Source: a virus. From it: DNA of 64,000 bases. Shown one piece after another: positions 1,177 through 60,530 of the stretch; positions within the stretch are counted from its first letter, which is position 1, and each line of letters begins with the position of its first letter. The notes below the pieces were generated by a model that saw only the letters and a program-made list of their open reading frames with translations, had not been told where the DNA came from and searched no databases. The DNA lies in IMG/VR virus record IMGVR_UViG_3300022188_000006, positions 64,001-128,000 of that record; one strand, given 5' to 3'. The translations under genes and the position numbers were made by a program.

Positions 1177-1186
1177 TCAAACCGTC

Positions 1187-2096: not shown

Positions 2097-2108
2097 TCCA
2101 CACCTCCT

Positions 2109-2602: not shown

Positions 2603-2610
2603 AGGAAATC

Positions 2611-3504: not shown

Positions 3505-3506
3505 GG

Positions 3507-5352: not shown

Positions 5353-5362
5353 GGCTTATCCC

Positions 5363-6010: not shown

Positions 6011-6021
6011 AACTTCTCCGA

Positions 6022-9162: not shown

Positions 9163-9168
9163 TAGAAG

Positions 9169-10148: not shown

Positions 10149-10204
10149 CGTTCATCTCCTGTCACAGACAACTTACGCACTGTATTACTCATGCAGCACG
10201 CACG

Positions 10205-10720
10205 TCACAGAGTGCGCGCGGGAACAATGATATCCAGACCCTCGTGCTGTAGCACAAGAGTCTCAATCAGCACCTCGGATCCTTCGGCATTGAGATCGCT
10301 CACGCTGAGTTCCGAGGGCCAAGCAAGATGAAGCCGCCACTGACGCACCGGTTTCGTGTTCGGCTCGCCCTTGTCATAGAGGCTGATGTCAACAGTTCGA
10401 CGAAAGCCAGTACGTTCGGCGCCCGCCGGAACACCGTCGCCGATACCACCGTCAGAGCCGTACCTGGCCACCCCTTCTCTCCAGGCAAAGAGGAAGTTGT
10501 TGTTGGTGGCACCCTTCGTCAGCGTAACCGGGTCATAGTTGGTCAGCCCGGGCAGCTTCATCTTCCAGACCGGCTGATTCCCCTCACGGTATTCAACCAC
10601 GTCGGAAGACTCCTTGAGGCCCGAGACCTTTTGGAAGCCAATTTGCGCATTTCCGGCCCCGTTCACCACGACAGAGAACTTAAAACTGCGGAACGGATCG
10701 GCCATGGTAACGTCAGCCAT
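10205..10720 (-). CDS. Tail tube protein (T4 gp19-like)
   Basis: DPFRSFKF...GFQKVSGL...EYREG...KLPG...VTLTKG...W..AWPS...LNA....IETL.L.HEG. Confidence 0.93.
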   Translation of the reverse strand: MADVTMADPFRSFKFSVVVNGAGNAQIGFQKVSGLKESSDVVEYREGNQPVWKMKLPGLTNYDPVTLTKGATNNNFLFAWREGVARYGSDGGIGDGVPAGAERTGFRRTVDISLYDKGEPNTKPVRQWRLHLAWPSELSVSDLNAEGSEVLIETLVLQHEGLDIIVPARTL

Positions 10721-10733
10721 TTTCCTTCTCCTT

Positions 10734-11267
10734 TCAAGCCATTGCGGCTGTTCCCCTAGAAGGAGCCATGATCGTCTCCGGCGGCCCCGTATAAGAGAAC
10801 CTCACGCCTTCGTTTGCAACCGTCATGCTCAGTACCTGAACAGAAGACGTTTCGGCATCGAAGTCGCCAAACTTTATGTCTTTTGGCCAGGCAGCAATGA
10901 CGTTCCACTTAGCCACTGGTCCACTATTCTCCCCCTTAGCCCATGCGGTAATCTCTATAGGGGCACGCATCGGCCTGCTTGATGTCATAGCCAGCACTTC
11001 CTCAACACGCTCAAGCCAATTCCACAGTGACTGAACCTCATAGGTAACGCCGCGGCTAAAGGTGACGTCCGGGAAGTGCATACGGTCAGGCAATTTCCAA
11101 GGTGTCACAAAGTCAGTCAGCTCGCTCCATTCAAAAACGCCGACGCTCGCGCCGAGTCCAGAGACCTTCTGGAATCCTAACGCGAAATCGCCAATTCCGA
11201 GTGAGCGGCCCTGAATGCTCACATGGAATCTAAAAGAGCGAATGGGATCGGCGATATCTACAGGCAC
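10734..11267 (-). CDS. Second tail tube-family protein (gp19-like)
   Basis: Paralogue of 10205-10720 (DPIRSFRF, GFQKVSGL, AWPK, NEG). Confidence 0.88.
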   Translation of the reverse strand: MPVDIADPIRSFRFHVSIQGRSLGIGDFALGFQKVSGLGASVGVFEWSELTDFVTPWKLPDRMHFPDVTFSRGVTYEVQSLWNWLERVEEVLAMTSSRPMRAPIEITAWAKGENSGPVAKWNVIAAWPKDIKFGDFDAETSSVQVLSMTVANEGVRFSYTGPPETIMAPSRGTAAMA

Positions 11268-14300: not shown

Positions 14301-14566
14301 CCAACCACGCGCGCAATATACGCCCGTGTTCCGCCCTCATCGAAAAACGCCTCGACTGCGGGCTGTAGGTGGCTACCGCGGAAGATTTCCCCGCATCGCT
14401 CTTTGAACTGGTCCTTGTTTGTGACCAAAATGGCCCTGTCAATGGCGCCCTTCTCGGCGACACCGACAAAACCAGCTGTGTTCACACTGACACCAATCAC
14501 GCGCGGCCGACCAGCAGTCTCGACCACGTAAACTCCGGGGTGCAGTGTCTCGATAGCAACAGACAT
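11327..14566 (-). CDS. Contractile tail sheath protein with large insertions
   Basis: HPGVYVVE...AGFVG.AEKG...FFDEGG; C-terminal YYPW...PPSGHMAG..A...RGVH.APAN...LNPVGINCIR...RVWGARTL...VRRL...CD..TN...P..PAEFV.FRI. Confidence 0.95.
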   Translation of the reverse strand: MSVAIETLHPGVYVVETAGRPRVIGVSVNTAGFVGVAEKGAIDRAILVTNKDQFKERCGEIFRGSHLQPAVEAFFDEGGTRAYIARVVGEGAAVSWANMRNSGDSGGPAKVVAGAAGPYNLDVGEHLDIDVLGYATQVFTFTGTQALVSGNGFTGNDINGKTLFIQFSGWDMATITFSGLPANPNATDVANFLNPLLQGGSAIVNSGEIDFQADQIGSGSFVKITGGTALADIGHDITEAYGTGNVPNIDSVTASDAAAALGTLQGAYAVASPNGELQIITVEKGASVSVQIAASTTASAFNFDNQIHYGWGSAGSSAKVITSLTEPFNLEAGEHLDVDISGQPTQVFTFTGTQAVRNGSGAYVPVNLNGQTLQIQFSGYDPTTITFTGLTNPAPVQEVLDYVNPRLRGGSMSAAANVFSFKADQYGSGSKVNILGGTAVAALMHAVGVTMGTGNVANVDKVTAQEVVDVVNATISGGSATTTTNGGVMIETLATGDSATIQVATSTTAEGLGFDNTLHRGSDADFMESILVRAENPGAWGNSVSIRTIAWQHELRGEVFNGDTKLQLSSIRGVSKGDILYTYDPSFASKRYVGLVTEIDVNAREVSVLPLIDDLVGIIPAGAPVQSCSQHRMSTITMEDLVDGADRITVASVGQLRIGARVVISDGVNLVDVKVTAIDGNVIRFAPVSLSNTIISGALAVSEEWMVQVLEKGVVKETHQFLSMEEESSDYFGVRLSGDTNESLIVELIDLYASPADLWRNIPLAVVSLPLEHGQDGATPTDNDFIGSDVNPRSGMYLLDDVRELNYFCIPGVTTEIVHTEMISYSENRSVVMCIIDPPRYADLPTEVYNYRMYDLNADSSYVAMYYPWVLERDPINSGATIERPPSGHMAGIYAQVASTRGVHVAPANIVMRNVLGLTYNVSDGEQDILNPVGINCIREFPGEGIRVWGARTLTSLRDGRHYVPVRRLLNFVKASIKAGNRWVVFQPIDPRLWAEVEAVNAEFLHSLWTRGMLFPSTDYTKAYFVKCDDETNTIADIRDGRVICEIGINPPFPAEFVIFRIGIWSGGTTIEEEIARRG

Positions 14567-22930: not shown

Positions 22931-24802
22931 TTACTCGCGTTCATCTGCTTCCACTGTAAGCACCGCGCGTGTCTGGCTAAGAGCCTTCGCGTCCTCCATC
23001 AGGCTGCGTGCTAGGACAAGCGCCTGATTCAGGTCAACCTTACTTTTATTATGCACAGAACCACCCTCCAAGCCAAGGGCCTGCAAGGCAATTGCTTCAG
23101 TTCCTTCAGGTTCTTCCTCTCTCTGTTCTTCTCGGGCATCGACCGGTTTTTCCCAATCTTCGATGTTATCAGAAGCAGGCAAGGCTTCTTCCTCAGCACC
23201 ACCTGGAGCAGCCTCTCCAGCTTCGCCACCTCCCAACATTCCGCCCATACCAGAAGCAGCAGCCTCCTGTTGCGCCTGCGTCTGCTCCTTCTGGTGCTCA
23301 ATCTGGGACTTCCACTCACCAATAATAGCTTCTGCCAGTTGCATACTGAGTTCAGCCATAGCAACCTGCATAGGCTTGTCAGCGAACTTGTAATCAGACG
23401 GATATGGAGGCTTGCCAATGCTCTGCCGAAGTTCATTCGGAGTCAACGCACCAAGACTGGCATAGGTCTGATCCATCCGCGCAGTATCAAGCGGGTCCGT
23501 TAGCTTCATGCGCTCAAAGCGGAATCGAACAAGCGGAACCTCACCCAGAATCCCCGGAATAAGCTTCTGGTTGATGATGTATTCTTTTTCGAGTCGATCG
23601 GGTTCGAAGATTTGCTCGTTGGTGATTTCGCGCTGTACCTGCGCCGAAGCCTTGTTCACTGACTCTGCAGCAAAGAACGCCTGACTGATGCCGAATACCT
23701 CGCGAATCTCCTCGTCGTTGGCACTGCGGTATTGGTTGAAGCTGGCATCTTCAGTAACGCCGACCGTCAGAGGCTTCAGGTCTAGGCGAACGCGCTCCCG
23801 GTTTTGCTGAAAACCCGTACTAGTGGGTTCTGTTTGAACTACGACCAGAGCCCCCGCCTTCTCAACACCCTGGACTTTCGCTTTGAAGAACTCTTCAAGC
23901 TTTTGCACGGATTCAGGTGTGAGCCGCCCACCAGCAACGAGCAGTGCCATCCGCGGCACTGCATCGTTCTCAAAGAAGCTCACGTTCCGGATCGCCGCCA
24001 GACGGTTTCCACTGATGGCCGGCGCCGTCGAGACGTACCTAGGAGCCCCATACCACGTACTCGTGGGACTGTAGAGCTTGAAATGCAGAATTTCGCTCGC
24101 TCGGCGCTCTAGCGGAATGTTGTCTCCATATTGCCCCGTCTTGGCATCCATCTGCAGCGGGTCACCAAACTCCTTGAAGTACCGCTTCTCGCTTCCCCGA
24201 ATCTGGATGTAACCGCCTATGACAGGCGTTTTATCATTGCCTTTTTTGACTCTGATTCTCATGCTCACAGATGGAACATGGTAGATACTGACAATCTCGT
24301 TCTTCATGTTCCTGACCACTTCGAGGTAGCCATTCCCGGTCGCCTCCTCGTCGACTTTGAGTGCGAAAAACAACTGACTCGTCGGCATCTCCGGATTCGG
24401 CCTCTCAAAGAGGATACGCAATCGCTCCATCTGCGATTGGATCTTGCGCTTAATTTCCGGCTCGGTATCGGGGCCGATAGCCACAATCGGCTCGATGAAC
24501 CACCCGAGCCCGACTGTGTTCCTTGCGTAAGTTCTGATGCAGCGGCTAAGCCGAGTGCTCTGCTCCATAGCCGTCGCCCATACCTGCGGGTTGAACCTTG
24601 GCGGAACAAACTCCCCGCCAGCAAGAGCACTAAACGGGTCACCCTTGATCTGCTTGCTGGCATCCCCGCTTACTGCCTGTTGGTCAGCAGGCGCGTCAGC
24701 TTCGGCCGCTTTGCCAAATATAGACACGTTGAGTGCCCGCTCGGCACTTGTCACCGACGGCCCGGTCCTGCCTAGTACTGCCTCGTAATCAGCTTCCATC
24801 AC
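22931..24802 (-). CDS. Portal protein
   Basis: PN.......D.EATGNGYLEVVRN...EILHFK.YSP.S..YG.P...N..FFEN.A.P...D.SF...EEI..VFG...LTPNELR. Confidence 0.93.
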   Translation of the reverse strand: MMEADYEAVLGRTGPSVTSAERALNVSIFGKAAEADAPADQQAVSGDASKQIKGDPFSALAGGEFVPPRFNPQVWATAMEQSTRLSRCIRTYARNTVGLGWFIEPIVAIGPDTEPEIKRKIQSQMERLRILFERPNPEMPTSQLFFALKVDEEATGNGYLEVVRNMKNEIVSIYHVPSVSMRIRVKKGNDKTPVIGGYIQIRGSEKRYFKEFGDPLQMDAKTGQYGDNIPLERRASEILHFKLYSPTSTWYGAPRYVSTAPAISGNRLAAIRNVSFFENDAVPRMALLVAGGRLTPESVQKLEEFFKAKVQGVEKAGALVVVQTEPTSTGFQQNRERVRLDLKPLTVGVTEDASFNQYRSANDEEIREVFGISQAFFAAESVNKASAQVQREITNEQIFEPDRLEKEYIINQKLIPGILGEVPLVRFRFERMKLTDPLDTARMDQTYASLGALTPNELRQSIGKPPYPSDYKFADKPMQVAMAELSMQLAEAIIGEWKSQIEHQKEQTQAQQEAAASGMGGMLGGGEAGEAAPGGAEEEALPASDNIEDWEKPVDAREEQREEEPEGTEAIALQALGLEGGSVHNKSKVDLNQALVLARSLMEDAKALSQTRAVLTVEADERE

Positions 24803-28183: not shown

Positions 28184-30466
28184 CTACACCTGCCTTTCAA
28201 GCCATATAGTCACTCGTGGGTCTCGGACGCTGCTGCCGTGCATATAGATCTGCAGGCTATCGTCTGCAGAGAATGTCACGGAATAGCCTGTCGCCGATTT
28301 CTGCGTCTGATTAGTCAGAGATAGGGTCGCACCGCTGACCAACGTGCCATTCCGATGAACTTCGGCAACCCAGCTCGCAATGTTGCGCGCACTCGCCGAC
28401 ATGGCAACCAGCTTGCAATTGTAAGGGATTACGAACCCATTCGAGCCGGTCGAAACACCATCAGCATAAAGGTATATGTTCGAACTGTAATTTCTCCGGG
28501 CGGCCGTCAAACAGAACAAGCCACCCGCCGACTGCGGTCCCTGGTAACCCTGGCTGCCCTGAAATCCATTGGCACCTGTCTCGCCCTGAGGACCCTGACT
28601 GCCTTGCGGCCCCGGATTCGTACCCTGTGGTCCCTGAACACCCTGAGGACCGTAATCACCAGATATTCCCTGCCAGCCCTGAGGCCCCTGGAACCCTGTC
28701 GGCCCCTGCACACCTTGACTGCCAGCAGCACCCTGTGCACCTTGTGGACCAGCGGCACCGGGGGGTCCAGCAACTCCTTGCGGTCCAGCGGAGCCAACAG
28801 GCCCTTGAAAGCCGGTATCGCCCTGAACCCCTTGTGGTCCCTGTGGACCCTGCGGGCCGGGATTGGTGCCCTGCGGGCCTTGTACGCCCTCGCCCTGCGG
28901 CCCCTGCACACCCTGCGCACCTTGCGAACCGAGATCGCCTTGATTACCCTGTTCGCCCTGCGGCCCCAAACCACCTTGTGGACCCTGAACGCCTTGCGGC
29001 CCCGAATCCCCTTGAGGCCCTTGAACACCGCTTCCCTGCCAACCCTGCGGCCCTTGGTTTCCTTGTGAACCGGAAACACCTTGACTACCCTGAACACCGG
29101 CATCACCCTTCACCCCTTGCGGACCCTGCGCGCCGTCAGCACCAACATCGCCTTGTGGGCCAATAGACCCTTGGACGCCTTGAGCCCCTTGCACCCCTTG
29201 AACACCCTGTGGACCCTGGACTCCTTGTGTGCCAATTCCTTCGGCACCCTGCACGCCCTGAAATCCCTGTGCGCCTTGGTAACCAATAGCTCCCTGGTAG
29301 CCCTGCGGACCTCCAACGCCCTGTGGACCTTCCTGACCCTGGTACCCGATTGGACCCTGGTTGCCGTCTATGCCCTGCGGACCTTGATCACCTTGAAACC
29401 CGGTTGGACCTCTTATGCCTTGGGGTCCCTGACGACCTTGGTAACCTTGCGGGCCTTGAACACCCTGAGGGCCGGTATCTCCGGTTTGCCCCAGACCCTG
29501 CGGACCTTGCACGCCTTGGGAACCGGTTGGTCCAGCATCTCCTTGTGCACCCTTTTGCCCAATTGGCCCCTGTACGCCTTGAGGACCTTGGTTTCCCTGA
29601 ATCCCCGGTGTTCCTGGATCTCCTTTGAAACCTTGCGGGCCTTGCGGCCCAATCTGCCCGTCAAGTCCTTGTGGCCCTTGCATACCCTGCGGGCCTAGAC
29701 CTTGAGGCCCCTGGGAGCCTGTTTCGCCGATATCGCCTTGCGGCCCAAGAGCGCCTTGCGGTCCTTGTGCCCCCTGCGCACCAGAAACACCCTGTGAGCC
29801 TTCCTCGCCCTGAGGTCCAGTCGCCCCTTGCGCACCTTGGTACCCGTAACCTTGTGGCCCCTGGGCACCTTGTGGCCCGAAGTCTCCCTGCGCTCCCGTA
29901 TCTCCCACAGATCCCTGAGGACCAATCGAGCCGGTATTTCCCTGGGGACCTGCAGTGCCCTGCGGGCCTTGTGGACCGGCTTCTCCTTGGTAACCCTGCG
30001 GGCCACGAAGACCAAGTGGCCCCTGCGCGCCAGTGTCCCCCTGGGCACCCTTGCTACCTTGGACACCCTGGTTTCCTATCGGCCCCTGATTCCCCGCAAC
30101 ACCTTGCCAGCCGCGAACTCCCTGTGGCCCCTGAACACCCTGGACACCTTGCGGTCCCTGAATACCCTGAGCACCATCAAGGCCATCAACACCGTCAGCT
30201 CCGGAAGGCCCTTGGACACCCTGCGGACCGGAAATCCCTTGAGGTCCTTGCGCGCCTTTCAAACCTTCAAAACCCTGTGGACCTTGAACACCCTGCGGGC
30301 CTATTTGCCCCGTATCACCTTGCGGCCCCTGAGCACCTTGAAATCCATACCCCTGCGGACCCTGTGGACCTGGGTTGGTGCCTTGAGGCCCTTGAGGTCC
30401 GAGCCCCGTGACCTTCCTCCTAACACCGAATCCGCGTTCTCCGCGGGGAACATGCGAGACCGGCAT
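28184..30466 (-). CDS. Collagen-like fibre protein
   Basis: About 620 aa of Gly-X-Y triplets dominated by GPQ/GxQ, plus a ~110-aa C-terminal globular domain. Confidence 0.92.
28530..30405. repeat. Degenerate 9/18-bp tandem repeat encoding G-X-Y collagen triplets
   Basis: Recurring cc(c/t)tg(c/t/a)gg units on the + strand. Confidence 0.85.
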
Positions 30467-36103: not shown

Positions 36104-37987
36104 CTACACAACGATGACGTTCTGAACGTACTTCGCCGAATCAAAAGGGTTCACAACGAAATCAGGAACGTCTACAGCAACCTCGTTCAGACCATCTTCA
36201 TCGAACTTCCTAGCCATCGCGCGCCGTTGTTTCTCTGCCTTTTTTGCTTCGAGCAACCGCGTTTGCACCTCAGCAGCGGACGCCTTCTCGATGTCTGGAC
36301 CAAATTCGTCCTCGAAACGGAAATTCATCATGAGACACATGAGCGCGTCTGGTCCGTGATCCTTCTTCTTTAGGATGGCACCGGTAGTCTCGGACCTACG
36401 GTAAGCCTTCAGTTGCTCGATTAGTATTTCCAGTGCCTTGTTTATGCGTATGCGCCTGAACACGAAGTACTTCGAAACATTTTCAATGCCTATCTTCTTC
36501 CATGTCCCGAAATTTATCGGCCGCACATCAAAACCAGCGCTAGAGAGTTCCGCGTTGTTGAATGGGTGAGACGAGTCTGCCAATACGGGGAACTCGCCAA
36601 ACAGTGTCTTCCAATCGCGCAACTTTGTAGCTACATCGGAGACCAGCACGTGGTCTGTAAACTCAGCCTCATGGATATAAACACATTCCCTCGTGCGTAT
36701 CCCCAGGATCATCACCATGCTTCCCTGAGACTGAATACCCCAGTCGATACCAACCGCCGCCCTATCCACCGCACTGTCGATAAGGATAGGATCAGTAAGA
36801 GAAGCCTCAATCAGCTCAGGTGCATAGACGCAAGACGAATACGACGGGCGTTCGCAGGCAAACTCGGTCTCAAAGACGGTCGTCCCGGCATTCATCTCCT
36901 TAGCTTCTGACACCATTTTGAAGGTGGCCCAGCCGTCACTGTGGCGCGCCTTTCCGTAACACCCCTTAAATACCTCTGTCTTCTTACCATCGGGACCATC
37001 CACCAAAACCCTGTCCGTCAAATAGCACCTCTTGCAGTACTCAAGAGCTTCCGGATCATCCTCCGTCGCCTCTTCGAGACCCCTCGTGCATCGTTCCATA
37101 GTATCAAACACGTTCCAGTTGTACCGCTGAAATCCCTTCTCCCTGTAACCATCCCAATACTCTTGGAACAGGCCGTGCGGTATATGGAACGTAGAAAACA
37201 AGCACACAATTGAATCCGGCTCTGACAGCGCGCCCTGCAAAGCAGCCCGCATCGCCTTTTCGACTCTGCGGTCCTCCTGGCAAACCTCGTCCACAAAAAT
37301 TGTCCCAAAGTGCTTGCCGCGTCCTTGTTTCTCCGTCGCCGGCACACACTTCAAGAGAACACCTGTCACCAACCGGGTGACATCAGAAAGCGGATCGCCG
37401 AGCAGGAGACCGTCACGCAACCCGGGCACAGCATCCCAGAACATCTTCACGTAGTCATAAACAACTTTCGACTGTTCCCCCGAACCTGCCACATCCAGTA
37501 TTTCCCGCTTCCAGTAGATGAGGAGCAACCAGATCAGCACAGCAGCCGAAAGAGATCCACCGCCACCACGCGGCTTCCAAGTGATCGTCTTTCGAACTCG
37601 ACCAAAAAACACGTCGCCGACCCATTTGATGATCGGCGGAATGAGCTTCACATAGGTCTTTTTGCCGTCCTTAATTACGTATAAGGTTTCCCCGACAAAT
37701 GATGCAAGCCTTTCGTGTTGCCGCTTTATGTATGCTTCTTCACTTTCTTCGTATCCCAAGGGCTCGCGAACCCAGCCGTCTGTCACGTGCCAGCCTTTTT
37801 CGGCAGCCGTAACGGCGCTCATCTCTGGATCATAGACACCCTGCTTGAAGCCACGGGGAAACAGCAGATCAGGCAAACCGTAAGCACCCGGATATCCCCT
37901 TGCGAGACGATCCCTGATCTCTCGCTCAAGCAGCAGAAGCTGTCGTAGCTTCTCCTCTTTGCTTTGGCTCGCCTTACGTTTTTTCAC
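36104..37987 (-). CDS. terL: Terminase large subunit
   Basis: PRGGGGS (Walker A position), RGKH...IFVDEV (Walker B), ST coupling motif, F.TEF, nuclease GIDWG, ADSS, DHGPDAL. Confidence 0.9.
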   Translation of the reverse strand: MKKRKASQSKEEKLRQLLLLEREIRDRLARGYPGAYGLPDLLFPRGFKQGVYDPEMSAVTAAEKGWHVTDGWVREPLGYEESEEAYIKRQHERLASFVGETLYVIKDGKKTYVKLIPPIIKWVGDVFFGRVRKTITWKPRGGGGSLSAAVLIWLLLIYWKREILDVAGSGEQSKVVYDYVKMFWDAVPGLRDGLLLGDPLSDVTRLVTGVLLKCVPATEKQGRGKHFGTIFVDEVCQEDRRVEKAMRAALQGALSEPDSIVCLFSTFHIPHGLFQEYWDGYREKGFQRYNWNVFDTMERCTRGLEEATEDDPEALEYCKRCYLTDRVLVDGPDGKKTEVFKGCYGKARHSDGWATFKMVSEAKEMNAGTTVFETEFACERPSYSSCVYAPELIEASLTDPILIDSAVDRAAVGIDWGIQSQGSMVMILGIRTRECVYIHEAEFTDHVLVSDVATKLRDWKTLFGEFPVLADSSHPFNNAELSSAGFDVRPINFGTWKKIGIENVSKYFVFRRIRINKALEILIEQLKAYRRSETTGAILKKKDHGPDALMCLMMNFRFEDEFGPDIEKASAAEVQTRLLEAKKAEKQRRAMARKFDEDGLNEVAVDVPDFVVNPFDSAKYVQNVIVV

Positions 37988-43343: not shown

Positions 43344-43847
43344 CTATCCTGCCATTTGCAAGGTGTCGCCTACCTGCCGAATCCGGCCGGACTTAACAAG
43401 TACCTCCACCACCTCAGGAGCAACAGGATTTCTTTTACCATCAACACGCACAAGTACCGGTTGCGTCCCCATGGCCCTGTGCACCATTGTTATCCTGGCG
43501 TCATTTTGCAGAAAGAACATGAGATGGTTCGGATTCCTTATGATTCTTCCATCTGGATAGATCGGGGATCTGGCTGTCGATAGAGTCTTTGTCCTCGGCT
43601 CAAACAGCGTTTCCTTTGACTCAGGTTCTTTTCCTGCTACAGGTTCGCTTTTGCTTCCAAGAACACCGAGAACCTTGTCCAGCGCCTGCTCCACTGCACG
43701 CTCAGCCACTGCTATGTTTAGAGCAGGCGCAATTCTAGTCTTTTGCTCCGCAGGTCCTTTGTCCGCAATGACCGCGGTCCCGGCAGCACGAAGATTTTCT
43801 CCGTCCCAGACAAAATTCGTCTCATTCTGAACCCGGCGCATTGGCAT
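43344..43847 (-). CDS. Hypothetical protein
   Basis: In operon; start uncertain. Confidence 0.5.
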   Translation of the reverse strand: MPMRRVQNETNFVWDGENLRAAGTAVIADKGPAEQKTRIAPALNIAVAERAVEQALDKVLGVLGSKSEPVAGKEPESKETLFEPRTKTLSTARSPIYPDGRIIRNPNHLMFFLQNDARITMVHRAMGTQPVLVRVDGKRNPVAPEVVEVLVKSGRIRQVGDTLQMAG

Positions 43848-45705
43848 TCGTCCGAGGAACAATTCTGACCATCGAACCACAAAAACTCAAGGGCAGATCC
43901 TGCACAAACTTCTCTGGGGTGTTCGTCGTAATTCGCTCGCCCAGGGGTCCCAGGTAACCGCCCATTACGTACTCCACAAGCGGATTTTCCTCGCCGCTGA
44001 GCACCACAACCTTGTCACCCTTTAGGGCGATCTCCCCGACAAGCTTTTGGTCTTTTCCAGCACCGGTGTAGACCTGCATAATCTCAGCGTTCTCAGACTT
44101 CAATATGAAGTCCTCTAGTTGGCGCAGAGCCATCGCAACAGTAGCCATCTCTGCCGCGTGTGGTTTCGGTTTAGGTGGCTTAGGTGTCTGGAGAGACCTT
44201 GCTCCCATGGCAAGCTCTACCATGTTCAACGTGCGAGGTAACCTGCCTTTCTCCTTTATTCGCCTAAGACGCGCAATGACACCGTTGGCTTCCTTACCTA
44301 GGCCCCATTTTTCCAAGGTTTTCTTTAGTTGTCCCTCGTCTACTTTTTGCAGCTGCGAGACGATCCGCTTGTCTATCTTCCCGCCGTTGTACTCATGGGA
44401 AAGCCAGTGAGGCACAGACGTAAAACCGTGAAAATCGCCTCGTTCATCACTGATCGGGAAGTTGAACCCATTGTCGATCGCGAATGCTTGCTTTCGGTCA
44501 GCACTGACCAAGTAATTCCCGAAGTGCCTGTCTGTGGCCCCTGTAAGGTAGTCAAAGACGGCCATTTTTTCCACGGAAAACCTGAAATCAGGATCGTTTT
44601 CGAAGTGCATCTGCGTCTTCGCCCGTGAAAAGTCACTCCCGCTCATAGCCCCTTCGACAAAATGCTGCCTAGAAGCAGAAGCCTCCGGATTCAGTGCAGC
44701 CTCTTGCAGTTCCTTCAAGGCTTCTTTTGAGAGCTTATTTTCCTTGTAAGCAGCCTGGAGTTCTGGGTGCATCAGAACCTGCTTGACAACCCTTGCTCTA
44801 TCCTCGGCCGCTACCTGCGTCTTTGTCTTTACTGTTGGCGGGACAATGCCGAAACCCAGCAACCTGTCCACCTCAAAAGCCGCCGCTTCGCGCGCCCCCA
44901 CCGACACTTTTTCGTTGAGAATACCACGCCGCATGAAACTAATCGGTGGACCAAGTCCATCCGGCTTTGTTACGCTCTTGCTGCCATCAGGTGCCTGATC
45001 GAAGTAAACCAGTGTTCGGCTGTCAATGCCTGCTTGCTCCCGTTTCACCGGGTCAGAGCGCAGAGCTTTTTCTACTTGCTCTAGGTGTCCTTCCCAAGGA
45101 GCTGACGAGAGTGCACCCTTCTTGTAAACAAAATCTCCCCATCCCGTCTCTTCGTCGTGCTTGGCCGGACCGGCCTCCCTCTCATCCAGCTTGTCGAGTT
45201 TTTCTGCTATCTCCCGCAATATGCCGTAAGCTTTCTGGATCTGCTCGGCATCCCCTTTCTTGAATCCATCACGCAAAAGCTGAGCAAACTCCTTCGCCCG
45301 TGTGCTAATCTGTTCCAGGACCTTCTTCTGATGCTCAGTAGTAGCCTTGGTTTTCATTTCGCGGAACCGCTCACCGAACTTCTTCATTAGTTCGGCAGAC
45401 TTCCGCTTCAGGTCCGGTGTTGCCTGCCTCGACGATCTCAACTGTCGGACAACGCTCTCGACCTCCTGGGCCAGCTTCGATGTCTTCGGGGACGGCCCTG
45501 CCACGGTCTCAGTCTTTGCGCCCTTGGGCGGCGTGTCCGAATACTCATAGGTACCATCGGGCAATTTACGCCGCCAGAGATGGCGCTTCCTGCCCGTGCG
45601 TCCCTCTGGGTCTGGGGGCTCCCAATCACCGACCTTCGCTTTCAATAGCAGGCTAAACTGCGTCAGCGATTCAACGATGGCTTCCCTGGAAAGATCCGCG
45701 ATCAC
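43822..45705 (-). CDS. Multidomain PI3/4-kinase / HipA-like kinase with fused C-terminal partner domain
   Basis: TKP, REAAAFEVD..LGF..VPPT, DYLTGATDRHFGN, IDNG; N-terminal leader and helical region; 91-aa domain after LK|S. Confidence 0.85.
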   Translation of the reverse strand: MIADLSREAIVESLTQFSLLLKAKVGDWEPPDPEGRTGRKRHLWRRKLPDGTYEYSDTPPKGAKTETVAGPSPKTSKLAQEVESVVRQLRSSRQATPDLKRKSAELMKKFGERFREMKTKATTEHQKKVLEQISTRAKEFAQLLRDGFKKGDAEQIQKAYGILREIAEKLDKLDEREAGPAKHDEETGWGDFVYKKGALSSAPWEGHLEQVEKALRSDPVKREQAGIDSRTLVYFDQAPDGSKSVTKPDGLGPPISFMRRGILNEKVSVGAREAAAFEVDRLLGFGIVPPTVKTKTQVAAEDRARVVKQVLMHPELQAAYKENKLSKEALKELQEAALNPEASASRQHFVEGAMSGSDFSRAKTQMHFENDPDFRFSVEKMAVFDYLTGATDRHFGNYLVSADRKQAFAIDNGFNFPISDERGDFHGFTSVPHWLSHEYNGGKIDKRIVSQLQKVDEGQLKKTLEKWGLGKEANGVIARLRRIKEKGRLPRTLNMVELAMGARSLQTPKPPKPKPHAAEMATVAMALRQLEDFILKSENAEIMQVYTGAGKDQKLVGEIALKGDKVVVLSGEENPLVEYVMGGYLGPLGERITTNTPEKFVQDLPLSFCGSMVRIVPRTNANAPGSE

Positions 45706-55597: not shown

Positions 55598-56106
55598 GTA
55601 ACTTTCCTGGCACGCGCTTCGATTTCCTCAAACATCGCAATAGCAATCATGCTGGCAAGCTTGTCACGGATTTCCCGTGTGTGCGTCCGATAAAATTCTT
55701 CCTGTTGTTCTGGCGTAGTGTAATCAGGGTTAATGTATCCAGAATCTAGCATCTCCTCCCGGTCTGCCTCTGCGGCTACCCGCCGCGCCACTTCCCAAAG
55801 CCACTTCGGAATTACATCGGAAACAAAACAAAGCTTGAACACGTCTTTCGTAACAAGCTGCCCCAGTCCATTCTCCTCTGCATCGCCATTACCGGCATAG
55901 ATCGCATAGACCTCACCATCCGGGACATTAAGCCTGCGCCACTTCTTTGCCTCGCGAAACGAACGCCACACACGAGTTCCCCGAGACACGCTTGCCTCGG
56001 GGTCGTTCTTTATCCGCCGGTACTCCTGCCGGCTCAGCACCACATACATCGCGTCAGGCATCTTCATACGTGGGCGCCTCGGCCGCAACGACAACTTTCC
56101 TGTCAT
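55594..56106 (-). CDS. Hypothetical protein
   Basis: 170-aa ORF; true start probably a downstream Met. Confidence 0.55.
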   Translation of the reverse strand: MTGKLSLRPRRPRMKMPDAMYVVLSRQEYRRIKNDPEASVSRGTRVWRSFREAKKWRRLNVPDGEVYAIYAGNGDAEENGLGQLVTKDVFKLCFVSDVIPKWLWEVARRVAAEADREEMLDSGYINPDYTTPEQQEEFYRTHTREIRDKLASMIAIAMFEEIEARARKVT

Positions 56107-57079
56107 CGGTCACCGGGCCATCACCCTTGTACTCCTTGCTGTTGGGGAGCGTAAAGAGTCCTTTGACCTGCTTTAACGCCTGGTCGTAACTGTTGCCCAT
56201 CACAATGACCGAGATGAACAGCTCTTTCAGGTGAGCGAAGGAAAGCCCCTCGGTATCGTCGACCCACCGGTCGATATCAGCGACCGCGACATCATCGTAG
56301 TTCTCGGCACCCTGCGAAAACAGGAACTTGAAGAATGCTTTCCGGCAGATCGGAGAAGGCGGTCCGAAGTAGTATCTCCGGTCGAACCTGCTCGGTCTAT
56401 TGATGATCCGCTCCCCCAGCCTCTCAGGGTAGTTCGTCGTCGCGATGTACACTACCTTCGAAACCCCAGAAACACCGTCCAATAGGTTCAGCACCGTGCT
56501 CTCGCAAAACCGCTGTACTAGGGAGTCGATGTCTTCCAGGAGAACGATCAGAGGCACATCAGGCTGCACGTTCCTGACAGTCCGGAGCGCACTCACGAGC
56601 GTCTCCGGAGGGCAATCCCCAAGCAGCACGATGCCTCCACGGGAGACCAGCTGCGTGGTTAGTAGTTTTACAGCCGATGTCTTTCCTCCACCGGGAGGCC
56701 CGTGAAAGAGAATCCCACGCTTGTAGACCAGCCCGTAGTCGTGGAAAATCTGCTCCCTCTTCCAGAAATCCTCAATGTGCTCTAGGACATCCGCAGCAAA
56801 GCTGTCAGGAAGAGCTGCGAGCTTTCCGCCACTATCCGGCATCCGAACAAAAATCAGGCCACGCTCCATGGTCACCACAGGTTTGTACATGCCAGGCGGC
56901 AACTCGTTCTGCGTATGGCCGACCGCGGCAAACTCTACACCGTCATTAGACGCCCACTGCGTTGCTGTCAGTAGGCCGCCCCTCTTGGCAGTTCTGAGTA
57001 CACGTAGCGCATCTTCCGGCGCCAGATGTATCCCAAACTCCTGCCGAAAGAAATCACTTACTTTTTGTTCGGCAGCCAT
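56054..57079 (-). CDS. AAA+ ATPase
   Basis: KRGILFHGPPGGGKTS, LLEDID, LLDG, TTNYPERL, RPSRFDR. Confidence 0.92.
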   Translation of the reverse strand: MAAEQKVSDFFRQEFGIHLAPEDALRVLRTAKRGGLLTATQWASNDGVEFAAVGHTQNELPPGMYKPVVTMERGLIFVRMPDSGGKLAALPDSFAADVLEHIEDFWKREQIFHDYGLVYKRGILFHGPPGGGKTSAVKLLTTQLVSRGGIVLLGDCPPETLVSALRTVRNVQPDVPLIVLLEDIDSLVQRFCESTVLNLLDGVSGVSKVVYIATTNYPERLGERIINRPSRFDRRYYFGPPSPICRKAFFKFLFSQGAENYDDVAVADIDRWVDDTEGLSFAHLKELFISVIVMGNSYDQALKQVKGLFTLPNSKEYKGDGPVTDDRKVVVAAEAPTYEDA

Positions 57080-57087
57080 CTTGACCC

Positions 57088-57294
57088 CTAATCTGCGATC
57101 TTGACCTTTGTCGCGATCTTGCCCCTACGGCCATCTGTGAGTTCATATTCTACAGTCTGATTTTCCTGCAAGATACGAAATCCCTCGCCGTCGATGCCGG
57201 TATAATGCACGAACACGTCGCTCCCGCCGTCATCAGGGATGATAAACCCGTAGCCCTTCTTTTTGTCAAACCACTTTACTCTTCCGCTCGGCAT
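57088..57294 (-). CDS. Cold-shock protein
   Basis: G.VKWF...KGYGFI, DVFVHY (RNP1/RNP2). Confidence 0.95.
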   Translation of the reverse strand: MPSGRVKWFDKKKGYGFIIPDDGGSDVFVHYTGIDGEGFRILQENQTVEYELTDGRRGKIATKVKIAD

Positions 57295-58439: not shown

Positions 58440-58694
58440 TTATTCCGGCCGGTATCTCTCAATCACAGCCAGCGCGTCCCTGGCGGCCTGTCGAAATCGC
58501 TCGTCCCCTTCCTGCTCTGCAATGTCTTGCAGGATCTTGGCCGCCACGAAGAAACTTCCAGTCCCAAACTGCCAGCCACTTGGTGTCTGCTCGACTCGGC
58601 AGTTACCTGCTTTTTCGTCGATAACGGCTACTAGCCCAAAATCTCCCTCATACCTACGCTTCGTTCTTCCGTCCTCAATGCTCACAGAGACCAT
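58440..58694 (-). CDS. Hypothetical protein
   Basis: 84 aa with SD. Confidence 0.55.
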   Translation of the reverse strand: MVSVSIEDGRTKRRYEGDFGLVAVIDEKAGNCRVEQTPSGWQFGTGSFFVAAKILQDIAEQEGDERFRQAARDALAVIERYRPE

Positions 58695-58709
58695 CGTTCT
58701 TTTCCTTTC

Positions 58710-59699
58710 CTAAATAGAACCGGCTACAAGCGCACCGCGCGTGACCGTATACAGTGGGTCATCAGCGACCCTGATGTCTTTCACCGGAATTGGAAACTGC
58801 AGACGCTCGAACACATCGGTGAACACCTTCACAAAACCATTCGGAGCCGAGGTTCCTCCGGCACTCACAATCGTGACTGGCTCGCTAAAGTTCGGCATGT
58901 CCTTGCCTGCTTCGAACCTCCGCTTGATGTTCTCCAGTGAATACTGGATGGCAGCCTCATAGTAAGACCTAATAGCCGCCTGTTCTCTGCTCAGCTTTTC
59001 CCCGGTCAGGCTGAACGCCGGATCTTCCTTAATCGCCGTCATCCGCGGCTTCACCTCCCCACAGACCTGCGCCGCTTTTTCGTCGATGTAGTCTCCTGCC
59101 CGGGCGGAAGAAAAAGTTATCACAGGAACACTCTTAAACGCGACACAGACGTTGACCATGCCGCCACCCCAAGAAATTCCAATCCCGGTAAACTGCTCGT
59201 CTGCCAGTTCTGCGAGGACCACCGCATGGCCCTCGGTCACGGGCACAGACTCGATCTGTCTTTTTTGTAGAATCCCTTCGATCACGGACTTGTGGAAAGT
59301 GCCGTCGAAGTTTGCGTCCACAGGATCCGCAGGCATCGAATAGCAGCACTTGTCTCCAGCTTCTGCGCCAGCGTCTGAAAGGAGCCTACCTATCATCCTG
59401 TCCATCATTGGTATGGCATCAGCCTCCCCAGAACTGATAACTCCAGACTGCATGGGCCGACGCACTTCCTTCCCAAATGTCTTCGCCAGCTCGAAAGCTT
59501 CGTCACCGGCGATATACAGCTTCCCGTCCAACTCAAACTCAGGGACGTTCATGGTGCCCAACATCCTCTTGCTGAACGCATCGTTCGGAACCTCAAAGAA
59601 TACGTTCCGCAGACTTGACACCTTCACATCTCCGTCCGAATCTTCCCACGCACAGACCAGCGTCGCTGTTCCTGGATCCAAGGCCACAACCTTAGGCAT
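58710..59699 (-). CDS. Actin-fold ATPase, volactin-like
   Basis: Phosphate-1 LDPGT, RRPM..GVI, EG.AV, phosphate-2 GISWGGG, adenosine AGGTS, connect-2 DPLY.V.RGAL. Confidence 0.88.
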   Translation of the reverse strand: MPKVVALDPGTATLVCAWEDSDGDVKVSSLRNVFFEVPNDAFSKRMLGTMNVPEFELDGKLYIAGDEAFELAKTFGKEVRRPMQSGVISSGEADAIPMMDRMIGRLLSDAGAEAGDKCCYSMPADPVDANFDGTFHKSVIEGILQKRQIESVPVTEGHAVVLAELADEQFTGIGISWGGGMVNVCVAFKSVPVITFSSARAGDYIDEKAAQVCGEVKPRMTAIKEDPAFSLTGEKLSREQAAIRSYYEAAIQYSLENIKRRFEAGKDMPNFSEPVTIVSAGGTSAPNGFVKVFTDVFERLQFPIPVKDIRVADDPLYTVTRGALVAGSI

Positions 59700-60138
59700 C
59701 GTTCTTCCCTCCGCGCAATTTTCTCAACAATTCCTTATTTCGGGCCACACCGGCCGTCTTGTCACCGCGAAGTTCTACCTCGTCGATATTTGTAGTCATC
59801 TCGGAACTGAACACCTCGGAAGCTAGAGCCTCCTTGATATTGGGAACGCCAGCATCACCGGAAACTGGGCTAGCCGTAGCCGGCACCGCAAGTCCCGAAA
59901 GTTTTTCCTCAAGCACTTCGGCCAGCATCTCCCGCAAAGCATTTGGATCCTGCTGTACACTGATACTTACCTCCTGCGGCGTTTTTTGTGCTGCGGATCC
60001 AACGGCTGCCAAAAACACCATTCGCATGACCTCTTTTAGTTCCGCCTTGTCCTTTTCGTTGAGGCTACGGAGCCGCGCCTTCTGTCGATCAAGGCGTGCC
60101 CACAATCTCTCAAAGGCTTCGACAGCTTCGTTATTCAA
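59692..60138 (-). CDS. Putative actin partner/adaptor protein
   Basis: Overlaps the actin start; helical N-terminus, low-complexity linker, basic amphipathic C-terminal helix (NKELLRKLRGG); probable TTG start at 60138. Confidence 0.55.
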   Translation of the reverse strand: MNNEAVEAFERLWARLDRQKARLRSLNEKDKAELKEVMRMVFLAAVGSAAQKTPQEVSISVQQDPNALREMLAEVLEEKLSGLAVPATASPVSGDAGVPNIKEALASEVFSSEMTTNIDEVELRGDKTAGVARNKELLRKLRGGKNDA

Positions 60139-60530
60139 CGCAGTTTCAGTTCCAGTGTCACAGCATTGCAGTGCCGGCAAATAGCTACCTCGTCGATCTC
60201 AAGCCGCCGGCCACACCTCCCGCAGTGTCTGTTCGCCTTGGCTCTCTTTCTTTCTATCTCGTCCTTTGTCAGGGCTATGATCGCTGAGATGCTGTACTTT
60301 GTTTTGCGCTTCACCCAGTTGTCAAAGCCGCCAAGCTCCAACAGGGCATACTCTGAAGCTGGTAAAACCTCCTTAAGTACGTCCAACGAGCGCATCAGAA
60401 ATTTCTTCTGTGCGTCCGTAACGGCACTCTCTATCGCAAAACCTCCCTCCCACCAATCAGATGGAGGCTTCTGTTTTTCCATTTTACGTGACCTTTGGTT
60501 TTGTTCAACCGTTCGCACTGTCGCGGACAT
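60135..60530 (-). CDS. Hypothetical protein with C-terminal Zn finger
   Basis: CGRC...CRHC. Confidence 0.55.
   Translation of the reverse strand: MSATVRTVEQNQRSRKMEKQKPPSDWWEGGFAIESAVTDAQKKFLMRSLDVLKEVLPASEYALLELGGFDNWVKRKTKYSISAIIALTKDEIERKRAKANRHCGRCGRRLEIDEVAICRHCNAVTLELKLR

What the first reader, a model, noticed from the sequence alone, without database searches (positions are those of the whole stretch)
58710..60138. Phage-encoded volactin-like actin with a translationally coupled partner
Seen: a complete actin fold. Motifs such as RN.F.E, GD.A...A..F.KE.RRPM..G..S..E..AIPMM, S.PADP.D, EG.AV..ELAD..FTG.GIS.G.GM.NVC.A...VPV..FS.AR.GD.IDE.AAQ, GGTS.PNGF and PLY.V.RGALVA match my recollection of haloarchaeal volactin (a cell-shape actin) better than ParM/AlfA or MreB; this comparison is from memory. 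The overlapping upstream gene has helix-linker-amphipathic C-terminal helix architecture, reminiscent of ParR-type adaptors. It sits in the recombination/replication block of a phage with bacterial signals. Inference: a two-component cytomotive system for positioning or segregating phage DNA, or for remodelling host shape. I saw no centromere-like iteron array in the window.
Basis: partly seen in the sequence, partly recalled or inferred. Interest (0 to 1): 0.78.

Follow-up and report, generated by a model that had tools for sequence, protein, structure and literature searches.

The report
Phage volactin-type actin with docking partner
An uncultured tailed phage of about 160 kb from hydrothermal-vent metagenomes carries an actin-like gene of the "volactin" family and, overlapping its start, a small partner whose conserved tail is predicted to dock onto the actin; the same gene pair sits in Planctomycetota chromosomes, so the phage probably builds its own actin filaments, which no paper I could search describes.

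Summary
Window 58710-59699 (-) encodes a 329-aa protein that matches Pfam Volactin (PF25216) end to end at 264 bits (cut-off 35). It folds as a confident actin (pLDDT 92.8). It is not ParM, MreB or MamK by family models.

Its nearest relatives are not haloarchaeal (37-38% identity). They are a clade of phage-like contigs (50-76%) and chromosomal genes of Planctomycetota and Omnitrophota (43-50%).

The overlapping upstream gene (59692-60138, 148 aa) belongs to no named family. Its C-terminal motif (phi-[ET]-[ST]-N-phi-x-x-V ... G-[VI]-x-x-x-L-x-K-L-[KR]) recurs next to the actin gene in 73 of 84 loci examined.

A complex prediction puts this tail in the cleft between subdomains IA and IIA. Score 0.84, best of 3 controls 0.00; the mark was reached by 58 of 80 solved complexes and 2 of 110 mismatched pairs.

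The 156-kb record shows no centromere repeats, no ParB, no tyrosine integrase and no tubulin. The partner's N-terminus is helical, not a ParR-type ribbon-helix-helix.

Best reading: a filament-plus-adaptor module of cellular type that acts during lytic replication. Its cargo is unknown.

This scan has reported the same module before on other phage and planctomycete DNA.

The parts
58710..59699 (-). Actin-like ATPase of the volactin family (329 aa, P0001)
   Evidence: PF25216 at 264 bits, E 2.6e-78, profile positions 4-320 of 321. AF2 pLDDT 92.8. Foldseek best matches MreB and MamK. D8-x-G10-T11, E156, S176-x-G-G-G-M-x-N183 and G281-G282-T283 are all present and conserved in 18 of 18 phage-clade rows.
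59692..60138 (-). Partner/adaptor gene (148 aa from TTG 60138; alternative TTG start at 60180 gives 162 aa); overlaps the actin start by 8 nt
   Evidence: No Pfam, PHROG or NCBIfam family. Homologues lie next to the actin in L002, L003 and L005. Fold: N-terminal helical hairpin, low-confidence linker, C-terminal helix.
59704..59811 (-). Partner residues ~110-145: conserved C-terminal actin-docking motif (..TTNIDEVELRGDKTAGVARNKELLRKLRGG..; N117 invariant)
   Evidence: Alignment of 29 phage and Planctomycetota partners. The motif HMM hits 73 of 84 actin loci. Predicted interface residues 110-142.
59707..59712 (-). GGAGGG Shine-Dalgarno for the actin gene, inside the partner's last codons
   Evidence: Read directly from the sequence.
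60135..60530 (-). 131-aa protein with C-terminal CxxC...CxxC zinc ribbon; its stop overlaps the partner's start (TTGA). Conserved member of the phage cassette; role unknown
   Evidence: Weak zinc-ribbon hits (HypA/DZR). Homologues in the same position in L002 and L003, and a shorter one in L005.
58440..58694 (-). 84-aa protein 15 nt downstream of the actin; conserved cassette member; role unknown
   Evidence: Homologues (36-45% identity) directly downstream of the actin in L002, L003 and L005. No family hit.

Best explanation
SHOWN.
- The gene encodes an intact actin-fold ATPase of the volactin family. It keeps all nucleotide-binding motifs.
- It is translationally coupled to a small partner gene.
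- The same pair, an actin plus a partner ending in the same ~35-residue motif, is chromosomal in many Planctomycetota. It is also found in Omnitrophota and in a clade of related phage-like contigs.

PREDICTED.
- The partner's tail docks on the actin. A short strand lies against the beta2-beta3 hairpin (residues 23-30) and subdomain IB (51-58).
- The terminal helix (131-142) sits in the cleft formed by helix 156-166, helix 90-109 and the C-terminal helix 318-328. This is the IA/IIA cleft that ParR, WH2 motifs and similar ligands use on other actins.

INFERRED.
- The actin polymerises with ATP.
- The partner is an adaptor. It has kept the cellular docking tail but replaced the long cellular coiled coil with a short phage-specific helical head, which binds a phage (or host) cargo.
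- The module is expressed together with the recombination and replication genes around it. It positions or organises phage DNA or replication and assembly sites in a large host cell, probably a PVC bacterium, during lytic growth.
- Functionally this would be an AlpC/AlpA-like or PhuZ-like device built from a different filament family.
For: Family and fold.

Coupling and Shine-Dalgarno.

Conserved pairing:
- Phage loci L002, L003 and L005.
- Planctomycetota loci have a coupled upstream gene.
- The motif HMM hits 73 of 84 loci, directly upstream in Planctomycetota and downstream of a second paralogue in Omnitrophota.
- Alignment of 29 tails with N117 invariant.

Docking:
- ipSAE 0.84 (three runs, 0.84-0.85); best of 3 controls 0.00.
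- The mark was reached by 58 of 80 solved complexes and 2 of 110 mismatched pairs. My own alignments were used, so these counts hold only roughly.
- The runs share at least 87% of contacts, and the partner's pLDDT is at least 72.
- Cleft residues F170, G322 and L324 are invariant or nearly so, and L106, A166 and V325 stay hydrophobic or small, in phage and cellular clades.

Maintained function in phages: 18 phage-clade sequences at 50-76% identity keep every ATP-site residue.

Lytic, replication-linked setting:
- The module lies between RecA/resolvase/nuclease and AAA/primase/PolA.
- No strong terminator occurs on the coding strand until 53272-53251.
- No tyrosine integrase, ParB or tubulin is found in the 156-kb record.

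Link to DNA elsewhere in the family: some members are fused to a ParB-type HTH (P0131, P0137, P0139).

Precedent: the prophage actin AlpC with its upstream adaptor AlpA is needed for efficient phage DNA replication (PMC4446434).
Against: - No filament, ATPase activity, binding or expression has been measured. The complex is a model only.
- The partner's head shows no recognisable DNA-binding fold.
- No repeat array that could serve as a centromere exists in the record, so DNA as cargo is unsupported.
- Cellular partners are coiled-coil proteins, and haloarchaeal ones are membrane proteins. This points to scaffolding or anchoring rather than DNA handling.
- Predicted interface residues are not more conserved than the rest of the protein.
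- Notes of this scan place the same module among neck and tail genes in other phages, so a replication-specific role may not generalise.
- The record is about 89% complete.
- The host is inferred only from homology of this module.
Confidence: 0.45

Rival explanations
1. Host-cytoskeleton takeover. The phage copies act on the host's own volactin-type system rather than carrying phage cargo. The phage actin co-polymerises with or poisons host filaments, or the mini-partner caps or competes for the host actin's cleft. This would halt division or re-shape the cell for virion production.
For: Both genes have cellular counterparts at 43-50% identity. The docking helix and the cleft residues are shared between phage and Planctomycetota versions. 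PF25216 passes its cut-off in 80 of 201 sampled Planctomycetota species genomes, so likely hosts often own the system. The phage partner has lost the long cellular coiled coil, and the phage actin has lost the cellular N-terminal extension, as expected of a stripped-down competitor.
Against: The phage keeps both genes as a coupled pair across a clade spanning 50-76% identity, which fits a self-sufficient system. The strand part of the interface differs between phage and cellular clades on both proteins (positions 54-56 and 28-30 of the actin; TTNID versus ESNL in the partner), which suggests lineage-specific pairing. The phage clade is not nested in any host clade, so mimicry of a particular host protein is not evident.
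Confidence: 0.25
2. Late assembly or egress scaffold. The filaments organise capsid, tail or packaging sites rather than DNA replication.
For: Notes of this scan report the same actin-plus-partner module inside neck and tail operons of huge phages (unchecked). The partner's head has no DNA-binding features. Two conserved small proteins of unknown role flank the pair.
Against: In this phage and in L002, L003 and L005, the module sits with recombination and replication genes, far from the structural genes at 1-38 kb.
Confidence: 0.12
3. ParMRC-like partition of a plasmid prophage or carrier-state genome.
For: The actin-plus-adaptor architecture with a C-terminal docking peptide matches type II partition logic. 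The family includes ParB-HTH fusions. Haloarchaeal copies lie on megaplasmids.
Against: No iteron or centromere array exists anywhere in 156 kb. The partner has no ribbon-helix-helix. No ParB and no tyrosine integrase were found; the only recombinase is a small serine recombinase, outside the window. The gene order is adaptor before motor, unlike parMR. There are no ParM/StbA family hits.
Confidence: 0.08
4. A non-polymerising actin-fold ATPase (chaperone-like or regulatory), with the upstream protein as its substrate or co-factor.
For: The phosphate-2 aspartate of canonical actins is a serine here (S176). No polymerisation data exist for any bacterial or phage member of the family.
Against: The Asp-to-Ser change is family-wide (225 of 231 rows). 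Volactin, for which Pfam names the family, forms dynamic filaments in vivo (PMC10869688), though its own sequence was not examined here. The nearest solved folds are filament formers, MamK and MreB. No Hsp70, sugar-kinase or FtsA family passes threshold.
Confidence: 0.05

Closest known systems
Volactin (VolA, HVO_2015) of Haloferax volcanii; Pfam PF25216 (Schiller et al. 2024, PMC10869688)
   Same: Same Pfam family, full length, 264 bits. Same family-wide phosphate-2 signature, S-x-G-x-G-M-x-N. Haloarchaeal family members also have a same-strand upstream partner, whose tail holds a weak version of the docking helix (VDxAVxGLRxLxGG).
   Different: Haloarchaeal copies I could fetch (megaplasmids of Halogeometricum and Haloarcula) are only 37-38% identical and lie in the other half of the family tree. 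Their partner is a 4-TM membrane protein, whereas here it is a small soluble helical protein. Volactin is a cellular shape determinant, whereas this gene is in a bacterial virus. HVO_2015 itself could not be fetched, so it was not compared directly.
Chromosomal volactin-type actin plus coiled-coil partner of Planctomycetota (uncharacterised); possibly the 'saltatorellin' MamK-like actin of Saltatorellota (bioRxiv 10.1101/817700)
   Same: Nearest cellular relatives, 43-50% identity. Same gene order and coupling. Same partner C-terminal motif.
   Different: Cellular actins carry a 20-50-aa N-terminal extension that is absent here. Cellular partners are 200-450 aa with coiled coils, whereas the phage partner is 148 aa with an unrelated head. 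The phage clade is a separate lineage, not nested among them. Identity with saltatorellin was not tested because no sequence was on hand.
AlpC/AlpA of the Corynebacterium glutamicum prophage CGP3 (PMC4446434, PMC5539076)
   Same: A phage-borne actin-like protein is co-transcribed with an upstream adaptor that binds the filament. It is needed for efficient phage DNA replication. This is the closest functional precedent, and the gene order is the same (adaptor, then actin).
   Different: AlpA binds 24 alpS repeats upstream of the operon, and no such repeats exist here. This phage shows no lysogeny genes. The actin belongs to another family: only PF25216 is hit. AlpC itself was not compared.
ParM/ParR/parC type II plasmid partition
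   Same: An actin-like motor plus a small adaptor whose C-terminal helix is predicted to enter the IA/IIA cleft.
   Different: No ParM/StbA family match. The adaptor lacks a ribbon-helix-helix. There is no centromere. The gene order is reversed.
MamK, and Mad28 with its coiled-coil interactor Mad25, of magnetotactic bacteria (PMC10653835, PMC12748827, PMC12713370)
   Same: MamK is the nearest solved sequence and structure: profile E 9e-11, TM 0.73 to the filament form 5ljv. Mad28 is an actin-like protein that in two-hybrid tests interacts only with a coiled-coil protein, Mad25, a similar filament-plus-coiled-coil logic. The Omnitrophota loci with two family paralogues also hold HEAT-repeat, ParA-like and coiled-coil genes.
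   Different: NCBIfam MamK scores 31.6 bits against a cut-off of 400, so this is not MamK. There is no magnetosome context. Whether Mad28 belongs to PF25216 was not tested.
PhuZ tubulin of nucleus-forming jumbo phages (PMC8314001)
   Same: A phage-encoded cytoskeletal filament used to position phage replication structures. It is a functional analogue of the proposed role.
   Different: It has a tubulin fold, not an actin fold. No tubulin is found in this record.

Membership tests
Volactin family (Pfam PF25216) | Full-length match to the family profile above the curated cut-off | tested here: met
   264.2 bits against a cut-off of 35; residues 6-326 on profile positions 4-320 of 321. The six-frame search of the genome gives the same result.
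Volactin family (Pfam PF25216) | Actin fold with phosphate-1, catalytic Glu, phosphate-2 and adenosine motifs | tested here: met
   AF2 pLDDT 92.8. Foldseek matches MreB, MamK and actin. D8/G10/T11, E156, G178-G180 and G281/G282/T283 are conserved.
Volactin family (Pfam PF25216) | Family-typical phosphate-2 variant S-x-G-[GA]-G-M-x-N in place of D-x-G-x-G-T-x-D (a signature I derived here, not a published definition) | tested here: met
   S176, M181 and N183. Ser is present in 225 of 231 family rows. The alignment to MamK shows D to S, T to M and D to N.
Volactin family (Pfam PF25216) | Dynamic ATP-dependent filaments in vivo (shown for H. volcanii volactin) | not testable with these tools
   Needs protein work or imaging.
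Volactin-plus-partner module (as found here in PVC bacteria) | Adjacent same-strand partner ending in the phi-[ET]-[ST]-N-phi-x-x-V...G-[VI]-x-x-x-L-x-K-L-[KR] motif | tested here: met
   Motif HMM: window partner E 5.6e-16; 73 of 84 loci; alignment A4.
Volactin-plus-partner module (as found here in PVC bacteria) | The partner tail binds the actin | tested here: met
   In silico only. ipSAE 0.84; best of 3 controls 0.00; the mark was reached by 58 of 80 solved and 2 of 110 mismatched pairs; contacts agree at 87% or more; partner pLDDT at least 72. This is not a measurement.
ParM/ParR/parC (type II partition) | Motor of the ParM/StbA family | tested here: not met
   No Pfam actin family other than PF25216 at E <= 0.01.
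ParM/ParR/parC (type II partition) | Adaptor with an N-terminal ribbon-helix-helix DNA-binding domain | tested here: not met
   The predicted N-terminus is helical from residue 2 (H2-19, H21-25, H28-50; pLDDT 86-95) with no leading strand. This is a prediction only.
ParM/ParR/parC (type II partition) | Array of direct repeats (centromere) next to the operon | tested here: not met
   None in 55-64 kb of the window, in the window or in the 156-kb record. The repeat clusters found are coding.
AlpC/AlpA (CGP3) | Adaptor gene upstream of and co-transcribed with the actin gene | tested here: met
   8-nt overlap, same strand.
AlpC/AlpA (CGP3) | alpS-type repeats bound by the adaptor; sequence kinship with AlpC | tested here: not met
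   No repeats. Kinship with AlpC was not tested directly because no AlpC sequence was on hand.
MamK | Match above the NCBIfam NF040964 cut-off | tested here: not met
   31.6 bits against a cut-off of 400.
MreB | Match to PF06723 MreB_Mbl | tested here: not met
   Not listed at E <= 0.01. The profile A3 against PDB MreB gives only E 2e-3.

The most novel reading that the evidence does not exclude
The C-terminal docking peptide defines an ancient actin-plus-adaptor pair that spans domains of life. A membrane-anchored form occurs in haloarchaea, which would explain why volactin filaments touch the membrane only by their tips. A coiled-coil form occurs in Planctomycetota. A minimal form occurs in phages. 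Tailed phages of PVC bacteria have kept this pair for a long time, as a self-encoded actin cytoskeleton that organises infection in large host cells. That would be an actin counterpart of the PhuZ spindle.
Probability: 0.3. Interest if true: 0.8.

Novelty: new variant of a known kind. Interest (0 to 1): 0.68.

Why it matters
Phage-encoded cytoskeletons are known from a few cases: PhuZ and TubZ tubulins, AlpC, and some ParM-like Alps. Here a different actin family, studied only as an archaeal cell-shape protein, turns up as a conserved two-gene module in a lineage of large tailed phages and in their probable host phylum.

The partner's short docking motif offers three things. It is a concrete, mutable handle for testing how volactin-type filaments are coupled to cargo or membranes. 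[quoted passage not shown] It also gives a route into the cell biology of Planctomycetota, whose use of this gene pair is undescribed.

If the phage filaments organise replication or assembly, this would extend virus-built cytoskeletons beyond jumbo phages and beyond tubulin.

Tried and rejected
- PHROGs: no family for the actin or the partner.
- The search for related loci in viral contigs with the single protein: nothing confirmed.
- Phage GenBank collection: no DNA match. Only two huge-phage records at 34-36% protein identity. One of them (L088) has no motif-bearing partner within 4 kb.
- ESM Atlas for the partner: no usable hit. A word-based search found only one relative.
- Fusion search: none of 149 family representatives carries the partner motif fused to the actin.
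- The listing of cluster members gave no organism names. A search from the acidic representative P0252 gave no haloarchaeal labels. Haloarchaeal copies were finally obtained from the plasmid collection.
- Conservation of predicted interface residues against the rest: not enriched (permutation p 0.81-1.0), so this adds no support.
- Sigma-70-like promoters occur at chance level.
- No RNA holder is listed among public runs.
- BFVD: no viral structure above 15% identity.
- HVO_2015, saltatorellin, Mad28 and AlpC sequences could not be fetched, so they are not in the trees.
- The idea that the 11-mer cluster at G000:60125-60515 is a centromere was rejected: it lies inside a 713-aa ORF.
Full report
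WHAT IS THERE.
All genes in this part of the window run on the minus strand.

The ORF before it ends with TAA at 59694-59692, inside the actin's first codons (ATG at 59699-59697). The two therefore overlap by 8 nt. A GGAGGG sits 7 nt upstream of the ATG.

The partner most likely starts at TTG 60138, which overlaps the TGA of the preceding gene. Homologues begin 5-14 residues before the conserved F-E-x-L-W, which fits that start. A TTG at 60180 with a GAGGT before it is the public gene call, at 162 aa.

THE GENOME.
The window is bases 64001-128000 of a 156,275-bp linear IMG/VR virus record, estimated 89% complete. It is a contractile-tailed phage:
- sheath 11327-14566
- tape measure 6022-9162
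- portal 22931-24802
- large terminase 36104-37987
- class II ribonucleotide reductase, family A DNA polymerase and a DnaG-type primase.

Around the finding lie a RecA-like protein, a Holliday-junction resolvase, a Cas4-like nuclease and an AAA ATPase. These are bacterial-type functions.

The record holds no tRNA in the window, no tyrosine integrase, no ParB, no tubulin, and one small serine recombinase.

On the coding strand the only strong terminator-like site between 64 kb and 53 kb is at 53272-53251. The module probably shares transcripts with the recombination and primase genes; this is inference.

Apart from the likely source run, the stretch is held at 0.63 or more of its sampled words by five further runs of five studies. 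Four of these are labelled hydrothermal vent metagenome.

FAMILY AND FOLD.
P0001 matches Pfam Volactin (PF25216) over its whole length at 264 bits, against a cut-off of 35. No other Pfam actin family appears at E <= 0.01. NCBIfam MamK scores 31.6 bits against a cut-off of 400.

With a 30-sequence alignment, AlphaFold2 gives pLDDT 92.8 and pTM 0.90, with the usual actin strand and helix order. The best solved neighbours are MreB (TM 0.64-0.68) and the MamK filament 5ljv (TM 0.73, 20% identity), followed by eukaryotic actins. By sequence profile, MamK is the only clear solved relative, at E 9e-11.

The ATP-site residues D8, G10, T11, E156, G178-G180 and G281-G283 are present. The phosphate-2 aspartate of other actins is a serine (S176), in the motif S-W-G-G-G-M-V-N. 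This is a trait of the whole family: 225 of 231 rows have Ser. It is not a defect of this copy.

RELATIVES.
A database of 5.8 billion proteins gives two tiers of relatives.
- About 26 clusters at 50-76% identity carry no names.
- Below them are hundreds at 45-49% identity. Those with names come from Planctomycetota and Omnitrophota MAGs, including contigs of 0.4-7.9 Mb.

A scan of one genome per species found 288 genomes with a relative. The best 80 are almost all Planctomycetota, with several Omnitrophota. PF25216 passes its cut-off in 80 of 201 sampled Planctomycetota species genomes.

The exhaustive representative search found 1028 clusters at E <= 1e-3 and 301 at E <= 1e-30.

Three members of the 50-76% tier that I looked up lie on contigs with the same phage-like neighbourhood as the window, with a RecA, PD-(D/E)XK nuclease or AAA ATPase gene nearby.

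The trees agree with each other.
- In a FastTree of 231 rows, the 18 phage-clade rows form one clade (97).
- In an IQ-TREE of 62 rows, the phage clade plus one further phage-like sequence (P0135, L089) has support 98.
- That group is sister (94) to a pair of paralogues from a cellular contig of unknown phylum (L090).
- All of these lie in the half of the family that holds the Planctomycetota and Omnitrophota genes, in an unresolved polytomy.

So the phage genes are of the PVC-bacterial type, but they are an old, separate lineage. No donor can be named.

Haloarchaeal copies that I could fetch come from megaplasmids of Halogeometricum borinquense and Haloarcula marismortui. They are 37-38% identical and fall in the other half of the tree, as does a huge-phage copy, LR745208.

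THE PARTNER.
The partner hits no Pfam, PHROG or NCBIfam family. Homologues at 26-40% identity sit next to the actin in the phage loci. In L002 an extra gene has been inserted between the two.

In Planctomycetota the gene directly upstream of the actin, often overlapping it, is longer at 200-450 aa. It is coiled-coil by its weak Pfam hits. It ends in the same motif as the phage protein. Compare ..TTNIDEVELRGDKTAGVARNKELLRKLRGG.. here with ..ESNLxxVxVKxxxxxGVxxxLxKLKxLxxG.. there.

An HMM of this tail finds it in 73 of 84 loci. In Planctomycetota it ends a short distance upstream of the actin gene. In Omnitrophota it lies downstream, after a second actin paralogue.

On its own the partner is predicted as follows:
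- an N-terminal helical hairpin, residues 2-50, pLDDT 86-95
- a helix at 65-82
- a low-confidence stretch at 83-131
- a helix at 132-142.

PREDICTED COMPLEX.
I folded the actin with partner residues 98-148, each with its own alignment.
- Score 0.84 (three runs, 0.84-0.85); best of three controls 0.00.
- The mark was reached by 58 of 80 solved complexes and 2 of 110 mismatched pairs. My own alignments were used, so the counts hold only roughly.
- The runs share at least 87% of contacts, and the partner's pLDDT is 72-74.
- The model supports binding; it does not show it.

Partner residues 110-142 touch actin residues 17-30, 51-58, 64-66, 97-109, 162-170, 189-190 and 313-329. I mapped these onto the secondary structure.
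- The terminal helix (131-142) lies between helix 156-166, helix 90-109 and the C-terminal helix 318-328. This is the cleft between subdomains IA and IIA.
- The preceding segment runs along the beta2-beta3 hairpin and subdomain IB.

From general knowledge, ParR uses this cleft on ParM and WH2 motifs use it on actin. No sequence likeness to those ligands exists, so a pass "from memory" seems unlikely.

The interface as a whole is not more conserved than the rest of the protein. The cleft residues F170, G322 and L324 are invariant or nearly so, and L106, A166 and V325 stay hydrophobic or small. The strand-contact residues differ between phage and cellular clades, and so does the matching part of the partner.

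A WIDER CASSETTE.
Across the window, L002, L003 and L005 the gene order is kept:
- a 273-aa protein (phrog_17202)
- a 159-aa protein
- a 131-aa protein with a C-terminal CxxC...CxxC zinc ribbon
- the partner
- the actin
- an 84-aa protein
- and, further on, a 101-aa protein.

The zinc-ribbon and 84-aa proteins have no assigned family. They are the first candidates for further components or cargo.

HALOARCHAEAL PARTNER.
In both haloarchaeal loci the same-strand upstream gene encodes a 4-TM membrane protein with an acidic tail. The tail contains VDxAVxGLRxLxGG, a weak match to the docking helix (HMM E 3e-4 in a two-sequence search, so only suggestive).

If this match is real, it would fit the published observation that volactin filaments touch the membrane only by their tips (PMC10869688). 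This is inference.

TESTS OF THE PARTITION IDEA.
- No direct-repeat array lies near the operon, in the window, or anywhere in the record. The clusters found are coding repeats.
- The partner's N-terminus lacks a ribbon-helix-helix.
- No ParB or integrase is present.
- Some family members elsewhere are fused to a ParB-type HTH (P0131, P0137, P0139). A link to DNA exists somewhere in the family, but not visibly here.

READING.
The identity of the module is well supported: a volactin-family actin plus a cognate, tail-docking partner, shared with PVC bacteria. I put that part at about 0.85.

Its job in the phage is inferred. I favour an AlpC/AlpA-like or PhuZ-like organising role during lytic replication (0.45 for the whole statement). 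The reasons are the genomic setting, the retained ATP site across a diverse phage clade, the self-contained coupled pair, and the swap of the cellular coiled coil for a phage-specific head.

The rivals are interference with the host's own volactin-type system (0.25), a late assembly scaffold (0.12), plasmid-prophage partition (0.08) and a non-polymerising ATPase (0.05).

KNOWN OR NEW.
Seventeen papers in the library mention volactin, and none of those listed concerns phages or Planctomycetota. Searches for actin-like proteins in phages and in Planctomycetota returned the following:
- AlpC/AlpA
- the PhuZ literature
- the MamK-like "saltatorellin" of Saltatorellota
- Mad28, with its coiled-coil interactor Mad25.

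None describes this module. BFVD holds no viral structure above 15% identity.

Within this scan, other agents have already reported the same actin-plus-partner module in several huge phages, in a 171-kb and a 260-kb phage, and in planctomycete chromosomes. This window is therefore a further instance, here in a replication and recombination setting.

I class it as a new variant of a known kind. A phage-borne actin with an adaptor is known; this filament family and this adaptor motif are not described.

Noticed in passing
window 57075-57124: Three copies of a 12-nt unit (GCGATCTTGACC, spacing 20 and 18 nt) around the start of the AAA ATPase gene (56054-57079) and the short gap before the next ORF. 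Possibly an operator; too few copies for a centromere.
   Followed up: no
window 58692-58712 and 59697-59712: The actin gene and the 84-aa gene after it share the ribosome-site context ..GGA..AAGAACGATG. A 29-nt direct repeat (76% identity) links 59684-59712 with 58646-58674, inside the 84-aa gene.
   Followed up: no
proteins P0131, P0137, P0139, P0144, P0122 (metagenomic family members): Some volactin-family actins are fused to an N-terminal ParB-type HTH. One is fused to a Wzz/GNVR plus ParA-like tyrosine-kinase-type module, and some are tandem double actins.
   Followed up: partly
family-wide; window residue S176 (codon at 59174-59172): The phosphate-2 aspartate, conserved in actin, MreB, ParM and MamK, is serine in 225 of 231 volactin-family rows (motif S-x-G-x-G-M-x-N). 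This may change ATP hydrolysis and filament dynamics in the whole family.
   Followed up: partly
L006 (Omnitrophota MAG JADFXH010000007.1), 1-10990: Two tandem volactin-family paralogues lie next to HEAT-repeat proteins, a ParA/MinD-like ATPase, a coiled-coil protein, a motif-bearing partner and two-component genes. The mix recalls the Mad23 (HEAT) / Mad25-26 (coiled coil) / Mad28 (actin) set of deep-branching magnetotactic bacteria. Whether Mad28 belongs to PF25216 was not tested.
   Followed up: partly
L091 2788-3687 and L092 2926-3834 (haloarchaeal megaplasmids): The upstream neighbour of the haloarchaeal family member is a 4-TM membrane protein with an acidic tail. The tail holds a weak version of the docking helix (VDxAVxGLRxLxGG), so it is a candidate membrane anchor for filament tips.
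   Followed up: partly
window 43822-45705: A 627-aa protein with a PI3/PI4-kinase (HipA-like) domain lies among the packaging genes. Other first-reader notes on this genome describe several such kinases.
   Followed up: no
window 11327-14566 and 28184-30466: An unusually long tail sheath (1079 aa, with the sheath profile split by a large insertion) and a 760-aa collagen-like repeat tail fibre.
   Followed up: no
G000:C1:15173-15550 (outside the window): A small serine recombinase (open frame 221 aa) is the only recombinase family found. Its small size suggests an invertase rather than a lysogeny integrase.
   Followed up: no
A3 alignment; cellular homologues P0032-P0112: Planctomycetota actins of this family carry a 20-50-aa (up to 130-aa) low-complexity N-terminal extension ending in ..FExGRGLDVGT. 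Most phage-clade proteins start 2-5 residues before the first strand.
   Followed up: partly
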